A DNA stretch of 6,724 nt. Source: a virus. Taxonomy: Duplodnaviria; Heunggongvirae; Uroviricota; Caudoviricetes. Location: the IMG/VR virus record IMGVR_UViG_2713896831_000003. The stretch is one strand, 5' to 3'. Positions 1 through 6,724 of this stretch are shown one piece after another (positions within the stretch are counted from its first letter, which is position 1; the number at the start of each line of letters is the position of its first letter). A program made the position numbers and the translations under genes. The notes under the pieces were generated by a model. The model worked only from the letters and a program-made list of their open reading frames with translations, was not told the DNA's origin and ran no database searches.

Positions 1-139
<139 letters not shown>

Positions 140-224: not shown

Positions 225-512
225 ATGAAACCTTGGCATGAAGATGTTAGACGATATTTTACAGAACACCTTATCTATGATGAATCCAGTGATTCCCTGT
301 GCTGGTCTGATGGAGAGTCAGTCACGATAAATACCGACGACTACGGCAACAAAACATTTAATATAGGCCGATATACTTTCTACGTGAAATATGTTGTCTG
401 GTTCCTTTATCATGGCTATCAATCCAACAAGCAAATTATCCATCGAAATGGTAACAGAGCCGATACCAGACCAAAAAATCTTATGCAAGTCCGAGACTTT
501 AAGAGAAATTAG
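225..512 (+). CDS. HNH-type endonuclease-like protein (HNH_3-like), 95 aa
   Basis: ATG at 225 preceded by GAGGAGG (215-221). The C-terminal motif IIHRNGNRADTRPKNL fits the His-Asn-Gly-Asn ... Asn-Leu core of phage HNH_3 endonucleases. The upstream segment YTFYVKYVVWFLYHGY resembles the hydrophobic stretch that precedes this core. Some consensus positions are substituted (Ile for Asp before the His; DTR for DNR). Confidence 0.55.
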   Translation: MKPWHEDVRRYFTEHLIYDESSDSLCWSDGESVTINTDDYGNKTFNIGRYTFYVKYVVWFLYHGYQSNKQIIHRNGNRADTRPKNLMQVRDFKRN

Positions 513-1081: not shown

Positions 1082-1110
1082 TTGACAAATAACCTTGAGC
1101 ATGACATAAT
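1082..1110 (+). promoter_or_regulatory. Sigma70-type promoter, near consensus
   Basis: TTGACA (1082-1087), 17-bp spacer, CATAAT (1105-1110). Predicted transcription start around 1117. Confidence 0.6.
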
Positions 1111-1287
1111 TGTATATATAGGGAGAGCAATTCTCCTTGAATTAAAATATTAATCGTCTCTACATCGATGATAACTATATTCTGAGTTGGAAAGGTGCAA
1201 TGCTTTTCGTCATGGCCTTTCAGGTTAGTCTGAGAGGCTATCTCAAAAAGTGCTTAATCATTCATTCATTGAACCCTTTACAGCTTT

Positions 1288-1316
1288 GCCCTAATCATGA
1301 GTTAGGGCGTTTCTTT
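1288..1316 (+). terminator. Putative intrinsic terminator or attenuator within the leader
   Basis: Stem GCCCTAA (1288-1294) / TTAGGGC (1302-1308), 7-nt loop, followed by GTTTCTTT (1309-1316). Confidence 0.45.
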
Positions 1317-1387
1317 AAGAGTTTTCAAACAGAACTTTTAAAGAAAGTTTTTCCTGAAACTTCGTTAACGTTATAAAGCAAACCTCC

Positions 1388-1434
1388 AAAGCCCTTCACA
1401 GATGAGGATGAACCTATGTTTAGGGCTTTTCTTT
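1388..1434 (+). terminator. Second terminator-like hairpin within the leader (weaker)
   Basis: AAAGCCC (1388-1394) pairs with GGGCTTT (1423-1429) around a ~28-nt loop, followed by a T-rich run (TTTTCTTT). Its 3-prime half, TTAGGGC-TTTCTTTA-AGAG, repeats the motif at 1302-1321. Confidence 0.3.
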
Positions 1435-1529
1435 ATAGAGCATCTTTAATAAATCGTTAAGTCATCTTCTAAGTGTATTGGCGTTGAAGGTGCTCTATTA
1501 AGAAATAATCACACTTAGAGGAAATTATA

Positions 1530-2240
1530 ATGACAAATGATATTTACATTAATGGCAGAAAGGTTGATAGCTTCGGTGACTGGTCGCCACAGACTGAACA
1601 TCCAGCTATCACTATTCAGCGTAAAGAACACGATGAAAGAATTAAGCTTGAGCAATCGTTAAAGATGTCACCAAAGGTAATTTCCTTTGTGTCTCCTGAG
1701 CCTCAAGAAATGCCAGATATCTGCAAAAGTGAAGCACTATTTAATCTTGAGCGTGAATATTACCCACAGTTAAAAGCACAGCGTATTAAACTTGATGACG
1801 CTTACAGCAAAGTTACCCTGATGCAATCAGCTATTGAGCCGTCAGAATTTGAGATTCAGGATGAATTGTCACAGAAACCATTTGTCTATTACCAATACGA
1901 AGATAATGATGGTTTTGGTACTTTTCCTGAGAATATCCCAGACGTGATTAATAATCTTCCTGACGGATATCGAATTGTGAAGATGGTTAAAGCTTCAAGG
2001 GGTGCTGGTCAATTTATTTATATGACTAATAAGAGCGATGAAGAACTCTGTGAACTTGCTAGACAGAACATCTTGGCATCACGTAACAAGCAACTTGAAA
2101 ATGTTAAGTTGTATCTCTCAAGAGAGCTTCAGGCTATGAAAGAACTTGTTAGTGAATATGAATCACAGAAGAAGATTGCTATGCAAGCCGATATTGAGCA
2201 GTTAATGAAGATTTCTCAGAAATATGCAAAGGCTATTTGA
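1530..2240 (+). CDS. Hypothetical protein, 236 aa, with a predicted coiled-coil-like C-terminus
   Basis: ATG at 1530 with AGAGGA (1517-1522) 7 nt upstream. Long ORF with codon usage consistent with its neighbours. No recognisable catalytic motif. Confidence 0.7.
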   Translation: MTNDIYINGRKVDSFGDWSPQTEHPAITIQRKEHDERIKLEQSLKMSPKVISFVSPEPQEMPDICKSEALFNLEREYYPQLKAQRIKLDDAYSKVTLMQSAIEPSEFEIQDELSQKPFVYYQYEDNDGFGTFPENIPDVINNLPDGYRIVKMVKASRGAGQFIYMTNKSDEELCELARQNILASRNKQLENVKLYLSRELQAMKELVSEYESQKKIAMQADIEQLMKISQKYAKAI

Positions 2241-2248
2241 GGTGATTA

Positions 2249-2557
2249 ATGAATGATTTAACAGAACGCGATAAAAGAATTAAAGGGGTGATGGAACCTT
2301 TTGAAGATAGGTTCAATGAAATTAAAACGACTCTTGGTGATATTCAGGAGGTCACTGAATATCTTATTGGTCGTATGGACGAAAAGCCTCTTGCCGAACT
2401 AAAGTGTGATGGTCGGGATGATTTAACGCGACTTCTTATCGAACTCAAGGATAAGATAAATAAGCTTGATACTGTGTATTATCAAACTGGTCTTTCACTA
2501 CGTTATGAAATTCAAAAGAATGAACGCGGTGTCGAGTGTATACACTACTTAGATTAA
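2249..2557 (+). CDS. Hypothetical small acidic protein, 102 aa
   Basis: ATG at 2249 with GAGGTGA overlapping the upstream stop. The N-terminus MNDLTER is shared with the next ORF. Its position two genes upstream of the tape-measure gene is compatible with a tail assembly chaperone, but there is no direct evidence. Confidence 0.65.
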   Translation: MNDLTERDKRIKGVMEPFEDRFNEIKTTLGDIQEVTEYLIGRMDEKPLAELKCDGRDDLTRLLIELKDKINKLDTVYYQTGLSLRYEIQKNERGVECIHYLD

Positions 2558-2582
2558 AATCGAATTAAAAAGGAGGTGGTGA

Positions 2583-2786
2583 ATGATTGATTTAACAGAA
2601 CGCTATGAACTCATCAAGGCAATTAGTGAACGACTGAAAGAACAACCCAACAAACCAAAACGAATCAAATCATCCACCTCTAAGCAAAATAACAGAATCA
2701 GAAGAATCGCTAAATGGTGTCTTGATAAATTACCAAGTGATTGTCAGATTGTTGGTGAAGATGGCAATTATTATCTGGTTGGGTAA
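2583..2786 (+). CDS. Hypothetical small basic protein, 67 aa
   Basis: ATG at 2583 with AGGAGGTG (2571-2578) upstream. The N-terminus MIDLTER is paralogous to the 2249 gene. The central region is rich in Lys and Arg. Confidence 0.6.
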   Translation: MIDLTERYELIKAISERLKEQPNKPKRIKSSTSKQNNRIRRIAKWCLDKLPSDCQIVGEDGNYYLVG

Positions 2787-2806
2787 AAAGATTGGTTGGG
2801 TAAAAA
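2776..2806 (+). repeat. Tandem direct repeat, 2 x 14 bp (TGGTTGGGTAAAAA) separated by 3 bp
   Basis: Perfect copies at 2776-2789 and 2793-2806. The first overlaps the TAA stop of the 67-aa gene. Confidence 0.8.
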
Positions 2807-2811
2807 TCTAC

Positions 2812-2853
2812 GGGAGAGATTATCGAGTGACATCGGTAGTTTCTCCCTTTTTT
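2812..2853 (+). terminator. Rho-independent terminator
   Basis: Long hairpin 2812-2826 / 2833-2847 (about 15 bp including G-U pairs, loop GTGACA), followed directly by TTTTTT (2848-2853). Confidence 0.75.
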
Positions 2854-2860
2854 GTATGTG

Positions 2861-2931
2861 TGCTACGTGAAATCTGTAAAGCTAATACCCACACTGAAAA
2901 ATAGAATTTACGTACAACACGCTTAAAGAGG
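2861..2931 (+). promoter_or_regulatory. Conserved intergenic element, copy A (candidate promoter or operator upstream of the tape-measure gene)
   Basis: Shares with 5005-5075 the collinear blocks TGCTACGTGAAATCT, ATACCCAC, TTACGTA and CACGCTTAA-AGAG. Contains an internal inverted repeat around a TACGT core. A possible -10 TAGAAT lies at 2902-2907, but no good -35. Confidence 0.45.
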
Positions 2932-2944
2932 TGAAATATGAACA

Positions 2945-4993
2945 ATGAGCAAATTTACAGTTGATAGTTTTATCGTTGAATTAGGCTTCAGTGAAAACGT
3001 TGTTAAAGGCTTGCAAAGAGTTGAAAAGGCAGCTTTGCAGTCAGCACAAAGAATTGAAAAGAACCTAAATAAAGGTTTCAGGATTAATACAAAACAGCTT
3101 GATAGTAATTTGACAAGTTCTTTAGGGCAACTTGAAAGGAAGTTTAATAAGGCTTTTGACAAGATTGAACAGAGAGCAAGAAGCACAAAAGCTTTCCGTT
3201 TCACAAGTCAGGTTAATGACGCTATTAATCCTCCAAAACAACCAAGACAGCCACGAATTAGCGGAAACAGAGCAATCACAGCAGCTTACTCAGCGAATAT
3301 GAGCAAGTTAAAGGGCTTTGACCCTGTTTTGCAGAAATACATCAAATCTCAGTTTTACGGGCTATCTGCTAAAGCTGGTCAGATGGATAATTCAAAATTC
3401 AATGAGAAGCTGGCTCAGTTAAATGCTTCAGTCAGAGAAGCAATTGCTAAAGCTAAAGGTCATACATCCACCAGCATTAACGGTGACAGAGCAGCTAATA
3501 GTCTTGATAGTTTGAGTTCAGCAGCAGTTAAAACAGCAGGTGCATTTATCAGCTTTCAGGCTGTACTATCCGCTTATCAGAAGATTATGGAAGTTGGCCT
3601 TCAACGTGCATCATCGGAAAGAAGTATTGATTTCGTATTCGGTGACCAAAGTACACAGGTCAAAAAGTTCATTCAAGATTTAACTCAAATTACTGGTATG
3701 GACACAACCGAAACACAAGCACAGTTTGCTTCATTTGGTGCATCTGCAAAAAATACGATGGGTCTTGAAGGCTCAGAGGAATTATTTAAAAACTTAACTG
3801 GATATGCCCGTTTAATGGGTCGTTCAGATGAGCAGATTCAAAGAGCATTAACCGCAGTATCGCAGATGGCTTCTAAGGGTCAGGTGATGGCTGAAGAGCT
3901 TAAGGGGCAACTATCTGAAGCTTTACCGGGTGCTACTCAGGCATTTGCAAAGGCTTTAGGTCTGACTGAAAAACAGCTTTTCGATAAGATGAAAAATGGT
4001 GATGTTAAAGCCTCTGATGCACTCCCTAAGTTTGCTAAAGAACTTGGTTCACAGATTAATTCCAGAGGTGGCTGGAAAGCTATTCAGGACTCTACGCAGA
4101 CGATGTTAGGGAACTTAAAGAATACTTGGAACAACTCACTAACGGATATCTTCAGAGGTTCTGAAAATGGTCTTCAAGATTTCACAAGAAGCTTAACAAC
4201 GCTTTTAAATAGTCTTGGTGGGAGTGGTAAAACATTAGGTGAAAGTCTTGGTAATCTCATGACTTCTATGTCACACGGTGTCGATAACCTGACTGATATT
4301 AGTTACAGGGTAAGGGCGTTCTTTGACGAGGTGACATTGGCTTATCGTGGTTTAACCGATGAACAAAAGAAAGTTGTTGATGCTTTAGGTTCTGGCTTGA
4401 TTAATAGTTTAAAAGTCTTGGCTGGTGTTATTGCTGTAAATAAAGTTGTTGGTGTAACCAGAAGTATTTACGGGCTTATGACTGCTATCACAAGATTAGG
4501 TCAGGTCGCTGATACTACAGCGGATAACGTGAATAGAAAGAACGGGAAACCATCAAGGTTTAATCTTGGGAATATGCTATTAGCTGGTAGTGCTATCTAT
4601 GCAGGTTATGAAAGATTAGCCTCTACACCTGAACGAATGGAAGCACAAGCTAAATTACCAGAGCTGGCTAAAGAGTCTGGACTTAAGCCAGTATTTACTA
4701 TGGACGATGTGAAAGGTTGGTTTAATAGTGCAGCTATGAATCTTGCTAACTTCCAGCATCCAGAATTAATCACCATGAGACAAGATGCGGCATTAACGAA
4801 TACGGATATCCAAAGCCTGAGAGATGAAATTAGTGCTTTGAGCAAACGTATTCAGGAGCCTGTGAAAGTTTCACTTGGTGGTGAAGTTGCCATTAAACCA
4901 GATGAAACCAGCTTTATGACCTTTAGCAGTAATATCTACGACCAATACGCAGAAGCTACGCTATTAAGTTCATCATTCCCAGAAGATGATTGA
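2945..4993 (+). CDS. Phage tail tape measure protein-like, 682 aa
   Basis: ATG at 2945 with GAGGTG (2929-2934) upstream. The long Ala/Leu/Gly/Ser/Gln-rich sequence looks largely helical by composition. The central segment (ALTAVSQMASKGQVMAEELKGQLSEALPGATQAFAKALGLTEKQLFDKMKNGDVKASDALPKFAKEL) matches the conserved tape-measure domain seen in tailed-phage tape-measure proteins. Ends with three consecutive in-frame stops, TGA TAA TAG. Confidence 0.7.
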   Translation: MSKFTVDSFIVELGFSENVVKGLQRVEKAALQSAQRIEKNLNKGFRINTKQLDSNLTSSLGQLERKFNKAFDKIEQRARSTKAFRFTSQVNDAINPPKQPRQPRISGNRAITAAYSANMSKLKGFDPVLQKYIKSQFYGLSAKAGQMDNSKFNEKLAQLNASVREAIAKAKGHTSTSINGDRAANSLDSLSSAAVKTAGAFISFQAVLSAYQKIMEVGLQRASSERSIDFVFGDQSTQVKKFIQDLTQITGMDTTETQAQFASFGASAKNTMGLEGSEELFKNLTGYARLMGRSDEQIQRALTAVSQMASKGQVMAEELKGQLSEALPGATQAFAKALGLTEKQLFDKMKNGDVKASDALPKFAKELGSQINSRGGWKAIQDSTQTMLGNLKNTWNNSLTDIFRGSENGLQDFTRSLTTLLNSLGGSGKTLGESLGNLMTSMSHGVDNLTDISYRVRAFFDEVTLAYRGLTDEQKKVVDALGSGLINSLKVLAGVIAVNKVVGVTRSIYGLMTAITRLGQVADTTADNVNRKNGKPSRFNLGNMLLAGSAIYAGYERLASTPERMEAQAKLPELAKESGLKPVFTMDDVKGWFNSAAMNLANFQHPELITMRQDAALTNTDIQSLRDEISALSKRIQEPVKVSLGGEVAIKPDETSFMTFSSNIYDQYAEATLLSSSFPEDD

Positions 4994-5004
4994 TAATAGT
5001 CGAA

Positions 5005-5075
5005 TGCTACGTGAAATCTTCTGAACAGATATACCCACCAAAAATTATTTTTTACGTAGCTCACGCTTAACAGAG
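5005..5075 (+). promoter_or_regulatory. Conserved intergenic element, copy B (candidate promoter or operator upstream of the 5151 gene)
   Basis: Collinear with 2861-2931 at roughly 70% identity (by eye). Internal inverted repeat GCTACGTGAAA ... TTTTTTACGTAGC (5006-5016 / 5048-5060). Confidence 0.45.
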
Positions 5076-5150
5076 AAAACACTTATATATCAAAGGCTTG
5101 GTTAAAAATGATTAAAATACACTAAGTCTTTGAAATCAAAGGAGAATTTA

Positions 5151-5924
5151 ATGATTTACTCTAACCAAATCAAATATAGTGGCAAAGATGGCATCTATTT
5201 CCACTTAAGAGATAATGTAGATGCCTTCTTAACCTTATCAGCAACTGAAAACATGGAATTTGACAGCCCTATGCAGGTAACTACACAGAACATGCAATCA
5301 GGGCAAACCGTCACAGATAATGTGCAAAGAGCACCCAGAACAATCACTATTAGTGGTGTCGTTGTAGTTGGCTATGAAGGAAGTTTATTATTAACTCGTC
5401 AGGGTCAATTAGTAGAAAACTTCATTGACACTCTCGAAAGCTGGCGTGACCAGAAGCAAATTATTTCGGTCATCTGTAAAGACGGTATCAAGATTGATGA
5501 CTCCATTATCACGAGTTTTAAAGCCTCTAAAGATGTTGGAATTTCAAACGGCTTAAGAATCCAATTAACTTTTCAGGAAATTAACTTTAAAGCTATTGTG
5601 GGTCAGACTGATATCTCGGCTGCGACCGGAAGGACTTCTACCACAAGTGATGGTGGTGCTACCAGTAAAAAGAATACTGGTAATACTACAACAAGTCTAG
5701 GTAATGGTATGTTGCTGTGTCAGGAGCTATATAATCGCTCTACGAGTGAACTTTCTAATGAGCAACTTCAAGCCCGTATCAATTGTGGTAGAAGTGTCAA
5801 AGTTGAGAATGGAAAAAGCACCTTCTCAGATGCCGCTAATGAGCAAGCTTCAAAGGCGCTTAATAATGCTGGTACAGGTAATGTTTTGAAGAGGCTTTCT
5901 GTGAATCCTAACAAGCGCTACTGA
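5151..5924 (+). CDS. Hypothetical protein, 257 aa, possibly tail-associated by position, with a Thr/Ser/Gly-rich low-complexity segment
   Basis: ATG at 5151 with AAAGGAGAA (5138-5146) upstream. The ORF track starts it at TTG 5130, which lies inside that ribosome-binding site. It sits immediately downstream of the tape-measure gene. No diagnostic motif recognised. Confidence 0.65.
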
Positions 5925-5938
5925 CGATAGAATCTCAA

Positions 5939-6724
<786 letters not shown>

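What the first reader, a model, noticed from the sequence alone, without database searches (positions are those of the whole stretch)
2861..5075. Two copies of a ~70-bp conserved element bracket the tape-measure gene
Elements at 2861-2931 and 5005-5075 are collinear (TGCTACGTGAAATCT ... ATACCCAC ... TTACGTA ... CACGCTTAA-AGAG), and each carries an internal inverted repeat around TACGT. Copy A sits just after a strong terminator and before the tape-measure gene's ribosome-binding site. Copy B sits between the tape-measure gene and the next gene. They are therefore likely repeated promoter or operator modules for a dedicated regulator or sigma factor. As direct repeats they could also mediate deletion or exchange of the tape-measure gene.
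Basis: seen in the sequence. Interest (0 to 1): 0.55.

Follow-up and report, generated by a model that had tools for sequence, protein, structure and literature searches.

The report
Repeated palindromic control cassette before tail genes
Two real copies of a ~70-bp palindromic non-coding cassette sit just upstream of the tape-measure and baseplate genes of an undescribed, phage-derived E. coli island, and they most likely control expression of those two genes rather than cut the tape-measure gene out.

Summary
Windows 2861-2926 and 5005-5070 match at 47/66 positions without gaps; shuffled sequence gives 36-39.

The window is part of an ~11.5-kb chromosomal island with a large serine recombinase. 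Related islands occur in ~470 of 5,426 complete E. coli genomes. Its tape-measure and baseplate genes derive from Felix O1-like phages, which lack the element.

Across ~90 related loci:
- Copy B, upstream of the baseplate gene, is nearly universal.
- Copy A, upstream of the tape-measure ribosome-binding site, is present in ~40%.
- A third, inverted copy lies near the island's left end, outside the window.

The element is an imperfect palindrome. Its arms, CTACGTGA and TYACGTAG, are invariant and sit at fixed spacing in 49 of 50 A/B variants. A TAnnnT hexamer abuts the right arm. A CACGCTTAAC tail follows.

No sigma-70 consensus, Rfam family or covariation was found. The element is absent from phage collections.

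My best reading, at confidence 0.45, is a DNA-level promoter/operator cassette that needs an unidentified factor. The main rival, at 0.3, is an RNA leader hairpin. No island has lost the tape-measure gene through the repeats, although the copies do exchange sequence. The function remains inferred.

The parts
2812..2850 (+). Intrinsic-terminator-like hairpin plus T-run that closes the upstream operon (genes at 1530-2786). It is followed by GTATGTG and then copy A.
   Evidence: 15-pair stem, 6 GC pairs, TTTTTTGTAT tail. The same terminator precedes the tape-measure gene in 61 related loci.
2857..2929 (+). Copy A of the cassette. Outer helix 2857-2860 / 2918-2921. Left arm core CTACGTGA 2863-2870. 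Spacer 2871-2901. TAGAAT 2902-2907. Right arm TTTACGTA 2907-2914. Tail CACGCTTAA 2918-2926.
   Evidence: (alignment A1, column n = 2856+n). Present at this position in 25 of 61 scorable related loci.
2927..2933 (+). Ribosome-binding site AGAGGTG of the tape-measure gene, fused directly to the tail of copy A.
   Evidence: Sequence. The same fusion is seen in all A copies.
2945..4993 (+). Tape-measure protein gene, 682 aa. The first ~45 aa are ~85% identical to a Felixounavirus tape-measure protein, the core is ~45% identical, and the C-terminal ~170 aa are unrelated.
5001..5073 (+). Copy B of the cassette. Left arm core CTACGTGA 5007-5014. Spacer 5015-5045. TATTTT 5046-5051. Right arm TTTACGTA 5051-5058. 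Tail CACGCTTAAC 5062-5071, followed by CAGAG.
   Evidence: (column n = 5000+n). Present in almost every related island, 144 or 83 nt before the baseplate start.
5090..5133 (+). Second hairpin ('Y module') between copy B and the baseplate ribosome-binding site. Its 5' arm ATCAAAGGCTT repeats the ribosome-binding region ATCAAAGGAGAA (5136-5147). It is present in the '-144' class of islands only.
   Evidence: 13-bp stem. for presence/absence between islands.
5151..5924 (+). Dit-like baseplate gene, the homologue of the Felixounavirus gene that abuts the tape-measure gene. Positions 5166-5709 are ~94-95% identical in DNA to many Felix O1-like phages.
380..390 (+). Lone third occurrence of CTACGTGAAAT, inside the HNH endonuclease gene (225-512), with no partner arm. 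It may be chance.
   Evidence: Conserved with that HNH allele in 10 loci.

Best explanation
The two repeats are copies of one DNA-level control cassette that belongs to an uncharacterised family of chromosomal islands. These islands carry a tape-measure gene and a baseplate gene taken from Felix O1-like phages.

Each cassette has these parts:
- two inverted 8-nt protein-recognition sites, CTACGTGA and TYACGTAG, 44 bp apart centre to centre;
- an A/T-rich spacer containing an A-tract;
- a -10-like TAnnnT hexamer touching the right site;
- a short conserved transcribed leader, (A)GCTCACGCTTAAC, that runs into the ribosome-binding site.

I infer that transcription starts about 7 nt after the hexamer, near 2913-2916 and 5057-5060. 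I also infer that an unidentified factor binds the two sites and switches the -35-less promoter on or off. That factor could be encoded by the island or by the infecting phage. Under this model the baseplate gene (copy B) and, in ~40% of islands, the tape-measure gene (copy A) gain their own regulated expression instead of relying on terminator read-through.

Shown: the anatomy, the conservation pattern, the positions and the distribution. Inferred: promoter activity, the start site and the existence of the binding factor.
For: 1. The position is fixed. Copy B is 144 or 83 nt before the baseplate start in nearly all islands. Copy A sits between the terminator and the tape-measure ribosome-binding site. 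Both are always in the sense orientation.

2. A third copy outside the window also follows a terminator, with the same TTTTTTGTAT junction as copy A. In the excised circle it would point towards the recombinase gene.

3. The two arms are invariant in sequence in 49 distinct variants while the spacer is mosaic. No compensatory changes are seen. This points to sequence recognition rather than mere pairing.

4. 49 of 50 distinct A/B variants have the same length, although homologous internal blocks are displaced by 1-3 nt. One variant has an unrelated spacer of identical length.

5. The first, second and sixth positions of the TAnnnT hexamer are kept while the three inner positions vary: TATTTT, TAGAAT, TAGATT, TAATTT, and TAACTT in the third copy. 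The hexamer is always at the same offset from the right arm.

6. Copy A and the best-preserved third copy follow a terminator, which is the classic terminator-then-promoter layout. Felix O1-like phages themselves use repeated hairpin + leader + ribosome-binding-site cassettes between early genes (57-bp repeats noted without function in PMC3185647).

7. A 33-nt unstructured loop makes a weak RNA hairpin, about -12 kcal/mol.
Against: - No -35 element is present, and the consensus scan finds no sigma-70 promoter in either copy.
- The element is absent from a Felix O1-like genome, from 50,697 phage records and from IMG/VR contigs. It therefore does not mimic a recognisable helper-phage promoter.
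- In 20 of 61 islands the tape-measure ribosome-binding site follows the terminator with no cassette. Copy B lies inside what could be one read-through transcript. A promoter is therefore not required at either place.
- The variant with the unrelated spacer (L008 type) lacks TAnnnT at the usual place.
- Some copies break the spacing: a 27-nt hairpin insertion in five A copies and a 44-nt insertion in two third copies.
- The plus strand folds better than shuffles (z -2.1 to -3.8) and the minus strand does not. Most changes in the arms are C-to-T changes that keep G-U pairs.
- A47 and T51 of the hexamer also belong to the extended palindrome, so their conservation has a second possible cause.
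- No candidate regulator was identified.
Confidence: 0.45

Rival explanations
1. The cassette acts as RNA. It is transcribed as part of a read-through tape-measure/baseplate message, where it folds into a long-loop hairpin just upstream of each ribosome-binding site. There it either sets mRNA processing, stability or translation of the downstream gene, or serves as the binding site of an RNA-binding protein.
For: - Plus-strand folding is better than shuffles (z -2.1 to -3.8), while the minus strand is at background.
- The core stem is 100% paired in 49 variants. One pair alternates G-C (22) and G-U (27), and another shows one G-U.
- Five of seven substitution events seen in arm cores, third copies included, are C-to-T changes that keep wobble pairing on the plus strand.
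- In L077 the outer helix is kept through a G-U pair while the non-palindromic tail is lost. In the L008 type the tail change G-to-C completes an outer helix.
- A self-folding 27-nt hairpin inserted in the loop is tolerated.
- The tape-measure gene needs no promoter in 20 of 61 islands.
- The tail abuts the ribosome-binding site.
Against: - There is no statistical covariation; observed values equal the shuffled controls.
- There is no Rfam match.
- The outer and extension pairs are often broken, with 16-27 of 49 variants unpaired.
- A strict loop-length constraint is not expected for an unstructured 33-nt loop.
- The third copy is not next to any protein-coding start and lies on the opposite strand.
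- The stem lacks the ~20 bp expected of an RNase III substrate. That requirement is from my own knowledge of RNase III.
Confidence: 0.3
2. The cassette has no regulatory role. It is a small palindromic repeat of the REP/ERIC/MITE kind, or a conserved 'linker'. It was inserted once at the tape-measure/baseplate junction and duplicated once or twice. It persists because it serves as a homology patch for exchange of tail-gene modules.
For: - The phage homologues abut with no spacer, so the element is an insertion. In some islands the junction GGAATAA-ACAATGTT is duplicated on both sides of the inserted block.
- There is presence/absence polymorphism at position A. Copy B has been lost in L019 (replaced by phage-like junction sequence) and L093.
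- Loop haplotypes swap between positions A and B.
- The upstream genes are unlinked from the tape-measure gene in pairwise distances (r = 0.14). There are also 17 locus pairs with a near-identical tape-measure 3' end but a divergent baseplate gene.
- A still smaller 24-27-nt hairpin is clearly mobile. It is found inside the cassette, elsewhere in the islands and in Felix O1-like phages.
Against: - Only three positions are ever occupied, each in one orientation.
- There is no target-site duplication at position A.
- No transposase or HUH enzyme is present. The 'transposase' name given to the 236-aa protein has no Pfam, NCBIfam or PDB support.
- Orthologous copies keep both arms invariant while loops and neighbouring genes diverge by 24-39%, which indicates selection on the island itself.
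- No tape-measure deletion between the repeats was observed.
Confidence: 0.15
3. The two copies are sites for a site-specific recombinase, either the island's large serine recombinase or the small resolvase/invertase found in some islands. This would allow excision or swapping of the tape-measure gene as a cassette.
For: - The ~55-bp imperfect palindrome with outer conserved arms is about the size of a serine-integrase attP site. That size comparison is from my own knowledge.
- The direct-repeat orientation around the tape-measure gene would give excision.
- In L147 the third copy lies next to a small recombinase gene.
Against: - The island's own att arms (TAAATACACTA / TAGTGTATTTA) are unrelated to the element.
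- The symmetry centre falls on a single base, not a dinucleotide, and the inner half-sites show no symmetry.
- The window's own island type has no small recombinase.
- No tape-measure-less or inverted arrangement was found among ~90 loci.
- Most islands have only copy B.
Confidence: 0.04

Closest known systems
Satellite late promoters activated by the helper phage (P4 Psid/PLL with P2 Ogr / P4 Delta)
   Same: Repeated, -35-poor promoter modules with a dyad-symmetric upstream site. They sit in front of the morphogenetic genes of a phage-dependent island.
   Different: The P2/P4 dyad TGT-N12-ACA is absent. The motif is not shared with the presumed helper lineage. No activator is known and promoter activity is untested.
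Repeated intergenic hairpin + leader + ribosome-binding-site cassettes of Felix O1-like phages (57-bp repeats, PMC3185647)
   Same: Same lineage and same layout. An inverted repeat without a U-run is followed by a conserved leader that runs into the ribosome-binding site. The cassette is repeated before several genes, and its function is unknown.
   Different: There is no sequence similarity. The phage hairpins have short loops, whereas the island element has a 27-33-nt spacer.
Intercistronic palindromic repeats of enterobacteria (REP/BIME, ERIC/IRU)
   Same: Imperfect palindromes in transcribed intergenic regions of operons. They show presence/absence polymorphism and nesting of smaller palindromes.
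   Different: Those families have tens to hundreds of dispersed copies in both orientations. This element has one to three copies at fixed sites within a single island family.
HK022 putL/putR antitermination RNAs
   Same: Two ~70-nt similar cis-elements in one phage-like genome, in the sense orientation within operons.
   Different: put RNAs have two stem-loops and lie between a promoter and the terminators they override. Copy A lies after the terminator. There is no Rfam match.

Membership tests
Sigma-70 promoter | -35 TTGACA and -10 TATAAT hexamers 16-18 bp apart | tested here: not met
   The consensus scan of 2500-5400 finds no site in either copy. The best match by eye in copy B is TGAACA-18-TATTTT, 8 of 12.
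Sigma-70 promoter | -10 hexamer with T1, A2 and T6 conserved | tested here: met
   TAGAAT at 2902 and TATTTT at 5046. T46 and A47 are >=90% conserved and T51 is invariant in 49 variants. The third copies have TAACTT. The L008-type variant is an exception.
Sigma-70 promoter | A mapped transcription start | not testable with these tools
   No transcript data were available.
Intrinsic terminator | GC-rich hairpin with a short loop followed by a U-run | tested here: not met
   The only terminator-like site in the region is 2812-2847, upstream of copy A. The element has a 27-33-nt loop and no T-run.
Any described RNA family (Rfam 15) | Match to a covariance model | tested here: not met
   No hit at E<=1 over the whole window, both strands.
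Conserved structured RNA (generic) | Base pairs supported by compensatory changes | tested here: inconclusive
   The seven core pairs are fully paired. Five of them never vary and two vary only between G-C and G-U. All covariation measures are no better than shuffles. Folding z-scores are -2.1 to -3.8 on the plus strand.
MITE / REP-like mobile palindromic repeat | Many dispersed copies in either orientation, with target-site duplications and a cognate transposase | tested here: not met
   Only three fixed positions are occupied. No target-site duplication is seen at position A. No transposase family hit was found.
Large serine recombinase att site | Shares half-site sequence with the element's own attL/attR | tested here: not met
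   The island ends carry TAAATACACTA / TAGTGTATTTA, which are unrelated to CTACGTGA.
Helper-phage promoter mimic | The same motif upstream of genes in the helper phage | tested here: not met
   The words, the paired ACGT sites and the profile are all absent from phage AYO145A. No true match was found in 50,697 phage records or in IMG/VR.
P2/P4-type and T4-type late promoters, sigma-54 promoter, integron attC | TGT-N12-ACA; TATAAATA; TGGCAC-N5-TTGC; RYYYAAC...GTTRRRY | tested here: not met
   None of these patterns occurs in 2800-2950 or 4950-5155 on either strand.
Small protein-coding gene | An open frame kept across variants | tested here: not met
   The plus-strand frame ending at the tail TAA has in-frame stops in the L008-type and L077 variants. 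The minus-strand ORFs over copies A and B use different frames.

The most novel reading that the evidence does not exclude
The cassettes are infection-responsive promoters of a previously undescribed family of satellites or anti-phage islands that target virulent Felix O1-like phages. The family is present in about 9% of complete E. coli genomes.

On infection, a phage or island factor would bind the inverted CTACGTGA sites. That would fire expression of substitute tape-measure and baseplate proteins and, after excision, of the integrase. The substitute proteins keep the phage-like N-terminal assembly interfaces but carry different C-termini. The island would thereby hijack or sabotage tail assembly.

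The island also carries patches of the phage's terminal non-coding region, which fits piracy of replication or packaging.
Probability: 0.2. Interest if true: 0.8.

Novelty: new member of a known kind. Interest (0 to 1): 0.5.

Why it matters
How Felix O1-like phages time their transcription is unknown (PMC3185647). I found no description of an element that parasitises or defends against them in the paper library.

The cassette is the only conserved non-coding signal placed directly on the two phage-derived tail genes of a widespread E. coli island. That makes it the obvious experimental handle. It can be used in reporter fusions, as bait for DNA or RNA pull-downs, or as a target for mutation. 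Such work could show when and how the island expresses its tape-measure and baseplate variants, and whether the island is a satellite, a defence system or a remnant.

If the element turns out to be only a palindromic linker, the finding is ordinary.

Tried and rejected
- **Helper late-promoter mimic.** Element words, paired YACGTR sites and an HMM of 49 variants all fail to find it in phage AYO145A. BLAST of 4996-5150 against the phage collection gave only chance hits. The 42 IMG/VR pattern hits were all unrelated sequences.
- **Small peptide gene.** The plus-strand frame ending at the tail TAA looked open in four haplotypes, including a 27-nt in-frame insertion. It has stops in the L008-type and L077 variants. 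The minus-strand ORFs 2820-2945 and 4936-5082 read the element in different frames.
- **Pairing with the putative non-coding RNA made from the strong promoter at 1082-1110.** Duplex energies were weaker than for shuffled targets.
- **Serine-recombinase att site.** The island att arms are unrelated.
- **Integron attC, IHF, DnaA, MotA-box, sigma-54, P2 and T4 late-promoter patterns.** None was found within the element.
- **Resemblance of the arms to P1 box A (ATTTCAC) or to parS.** This rests only on my memory of those sites. The invariant part of the arm (CTAC) lies outside that motif, so I dropped it.
- **T7-like promoter resemblance (CTCAC).** Only 5 nt are shared, and Felix O1 encodes no RNA polymerase.
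- **Reaching more distant islands for covariation.** The protein search returned only relatives of >=89% identity in its top 120. The viral-contig scan found six close relatives.
- **Literature.** Searches for satellites of Felix O1-like phages, or for islands carrying a tape-measure gene, found nothing relevant.
Full report
**The observation**

The two copies are real. The repeat finder reports 2861-2926 and 5005-5070 as the largest direct-repeat family in the window: 66 nt, 71% ungapped identity, sharing TGCTACGTGAAATCT, ATACCCAC, TTACGTA and CACGCTTAA. An all-offset scan finds this pair as the best 66-nt direct match, at 47/66. Fifteen shuffles gave 36-39.

Each copy contains inverted arms around ACGT. 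Copy A follows a terminator-like hairpin at 2812-2847 and ends at the AGAGGTG ribosome-binding site of the tape-measure gene (2945-4993). Copy B lies between that gene and a Dit-like baseplate gene (5151-5924).

**What the window is**

The window matches E. coli chromosomes at 100% identity, not a phage. In strain AR434 it is part of an ~11.5-kb island inserted in the DUF72 gene between yecN and yecD. A large serine recombinase gene sits at the right end, and a largely non-coding left third carries an AP2/homing-endonuclease-like gene.

The first and last 139 nt of the window are the same IS21-family end in inverted orientation. The contig is therefore bounded by insertion sequences, and the recombinase gene is cut at 6584.

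Related islands occur in 463-472 of 5,426 complete E. coli genomes, at 68-100% identity and at several integration sites (yecE, next to tonB, and others). They also occur in E. albertii, Citrobacter and Shigella.

Two links to Felix O1-like phages stand out.
- The baseplate gene is ~94-95% identical in DNA to Felix O1-like phages over 5166-5709. The protein is 80% identical overall, and nearly identical over its first ~185 aa.
- The tape-measure protein shares only its first ~45 aa closely with the phage protein, and 31% overall.

In the phage the two genes abut (TAATG overlap) and no element lies between them.

**Distribution of the element**

I gathered 9 islands from E. coli genomes, 3 loci from other genomes and 80 metagenome loci.

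- **Copy B** is present 144 or 83 nt before the baseplate start in nearly all islands. It is absent from every phage contig.
  - L019 has a phage-like abutting junction, with copy B replaced by phage sequence.
  - L093 has no copy at all.
- **Position A** is scorable in 61 loci, with four states.
  - 20 have nothing; the ribosome-binding site lies 18-35 nt after the terminator.
  - 18 have the element only.
  - 16 have only a small hairpin (GGATAGCCTTCTATCC type).
  - 7 have both.
- No locus has lost the tape-measure gene between the repeats.
- **A third copy** lies outside the window, 400-500 nt from the island's left end on the other strand. In L147 it follows a terminator with the same TTTTTTGTAT junction as copy A. 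After excision it would point through attP towards the recombinase gene.

The element was not found elsewhere in E. coli genomes, in 50,697 phage records, in IMG/VR, in Rfam or in phage AYO145A by profile search.

**Anatomy from 50 distinct A/B variants**

- Invariant positions are CTACGTGA (left arm), TT-Y-ACGTA (right arm) and CA..CTTAA (tail).
- T46, A47 and T51 form a TAnnnT hexamer that touches the right arm. Its inner positions vary: TATTTT, TAGAAT, TAGATT, TAATTT, and TAACTT in the third copies.
- The palindrome extends outward. CGTG upstream pairs with CACG of the 'tail', so only TTAAC(AG) lies outside it.
- The spacer is a mosaic of at least four haplotypes, which swap between positions A and B.
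- 49 of 50 variants have the same length, even though homologous blocks inside are shifted. One variant (L008 type) has an unrelated spacer of identical length.
- Exceptions to the spacing are a 27-nt hairpin inserted after the left arm in five A copies and in one third copy, and a 44-nt insertion in two third copies.

**DNA or RNA?**

For RNA:
- The plus strand folds better than shuffles (z -2.1 to -3.8) and the minus strand does not.
- The core stem is always paired, with one pair alternating between G-C and G-U.
- Five of the seven substitutions I could find in arm cores are C-to-T changes that keep wobble pairs.

Against RNA:
- Covariation is no better than in shuffled controls.
- Outer pairs are often broken.
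- The loop is long and unstructured.
- The third copy is not next to a gene start.

For a DNA promoter/operator:
- The arms are invariant in sequence.
- The spacing is fixed.
- The TAnnnT pattern is conserved at its key positions.
- Copy A and the L147 third copy follow terminators.
- The sense orientation is towards a gene at all three positions.

Against a DNA promoter/operator:
- There is no -35 element and no consensus promoter call.
- The motif is not shared with the phage.
- A promoter is evidently dispensable at position A in a third of islands.

I therefore rank the explanations as follows: promoter/operator cassette 0.45, RNA leader hairpin 0.30, palindromic repeat or recombination linker without regulatory function 0.15, and recombinase site 0.04.

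Pairwise distances show that the genes upstream of the terminator are unlinked from the tape-measure gene (r = 0.14). The tape-measure and baseplate genes are partly linked (r = 0.49-0.59). Seventeen locus pairs have a near-identical tape-measure 3' end but a divergent baseplate gene. Both cassette positions are therefore module junctions, and the copies convert each other. Deletion of the tape-measure gene was not seen.

**Context that raises interest**

The island's left non-coding region shares patches with the large non-coding region of Felix O1-like phages, where many deposited genomes begin or end.
- One patch is 53 nt at 83% identity to AYO145A.
- Another is a 50-nt block at 93-96% identity to phages NBEco004, NBEco005 and EC106.

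Both regions are rich in CTTAACAG-type repeats, and this word also ends the cassette tail.

Taken together, the recombinase, the phage-derived tail genes with altered C-termini and the lack of any capsid or terminase gene suggest a satellite or an anti-phage island aimed at Felix O1-like phages. I found no description of such an element in the paper library. The Felix O1 genome paper states that temporal control of its transcription is unknown.

**Verdict**

The element is a new, island-specific member of a familiar kind, the repeated intergenic control cassette. Its mechanism is inferred and not shown.

Noticed in passing
window 1-139 and 6585-6723: The two window ends are a perfect 139-nt inverted repeat. 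Each is the end of an IS21-family insertion sequence (TGTCAACG...TGATCCAC repeats). RefSeq annotates IS100-type copies at this junction in other strains. The island copy in this window is therefore flanked or disrupted by insertion sequences, and the recombinase gene is truncated at 6584.
   Followed up: partly
L001 1908-13400 (whole island; the window covers its right 55%): An ~11.5-kb island in the yecE (DUF72) gene with a large serine recombinase. Related islands occur in ~470 of 5,426 complete E. coli genomes at several integration sites. They carry no capsid or terminase genes. They do carry a tape-measure gene and a baseplate gene derived from Felix O1-like phages, which may mark an undescribed satellite or defence island.
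   Followed up: partly
L147 3285-3440 (+), L140 1125-1275 (-), L001 2275-2425 (-): A third, inverted copy of the cassette lies near the island's left end, outside the window. In the excised circle it would point through attP towards the recombinase gene, ~450 nt away. In L001 it is degraded, with CG-to-TG changes in both arms and a 44-nt insertion.
   Followed up: partly
window 5166-5709: This part of the baseplate gene is 94-95% identical in DNA to ~200 Felix O1-like phage genomes. The first 5 codons and the last ~70 codons differ. This suggests recent gene conversion between phage and island.
   Followed up: yes
L001 1936-1987 and 4207-4258; L138 2506-2555; A copies of L031, L047, L071, L090: A 24-27-nt hairpin (GATGATTCGGATGAAGCATCCTCAT and variants) behaves like a tiny mobile insertion. 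It occurs twice in the island's left region and in the non-coding region of some Felix O1-like phages (93-96% identity). It also lies between the terminator and the tape-measure ribosome-binding site in many islands, and inside the left arm of the cassette.
   Followed up: partly
L001 1908-5050 versus L003 14850-16480 and L138 950-2720: The island's left non-coding region shares patches with the large non-coding region of Felix O1-like phages. Both are full of CTTAACAG / CTTGTTA repeats. Many phage records begin or end there, so the region may hold replication or packaging signals.
   Followed up: partly
window 1082-1440: A near-consensus sigma-70 promoter (TTGACA-17-CATAAT with TG, 11/12) is followed by ~400 nt without an ORF and two terminator-like hairpins (1287-1309 and ~1390-1437). 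This is a candidate non-coding RNA. It shows no special complementarity to the cassettes.
   Followed up: partly
window 2239-2275 and 2573-2609: The two small genes before the terminator (102 aa and 67 aa) share their ribosome-binding site and first ~10 codons (86% over 37 nt), so they are paralogues. Most related islands have only one of them.
   Followed up: no
window 5090-5147: The hairpin between copy B and the baseplate start has a 5' arm (ATCAAAGGCTT) that repeats the ribosome-binding region (ATCAAAGGAGAA). Its 3' arm could therefore pair with either, giving a possible translational switch. It is present only in the '-144' class of islands.
   Followed up: no
L005 7161-7240, L012 6269-6345, L040 (gap between the tape-measure and baseplate genes): Some islands carry an extra module before copy B. 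It begins with a duplicated copy of the original junction (GGAATAAACAATGTT) and opens an 18-codon hydrophobic ORF, MLELLIFIATHGNLLIFI*.
   Followed up: no
window 1530-2240: RefSeq names the 236-aa protein 'transposase' in many genomes. It has no Pfam, PHROG, NCBIfam, PADLOC or PDB-sequence support and no HUH or DDE signature that I could see. More than 3,000 90%-identity clusters of it exist in public data.
   Followed up: partly
L003 9224-14568 (phage AYO145A early region): Felix O1-like phages have two families of repeated intergenic cassettes, each made of a hairpin, a conserved leader and a ribosome-binding site. In one family the hairpin lies between a TTTACA -35-like hexamer and a TAAAGT -10-like hexamer. 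The Felix O1 genome paper noted them as 57-bp repeats without assigning a function.
   Followed up: partly
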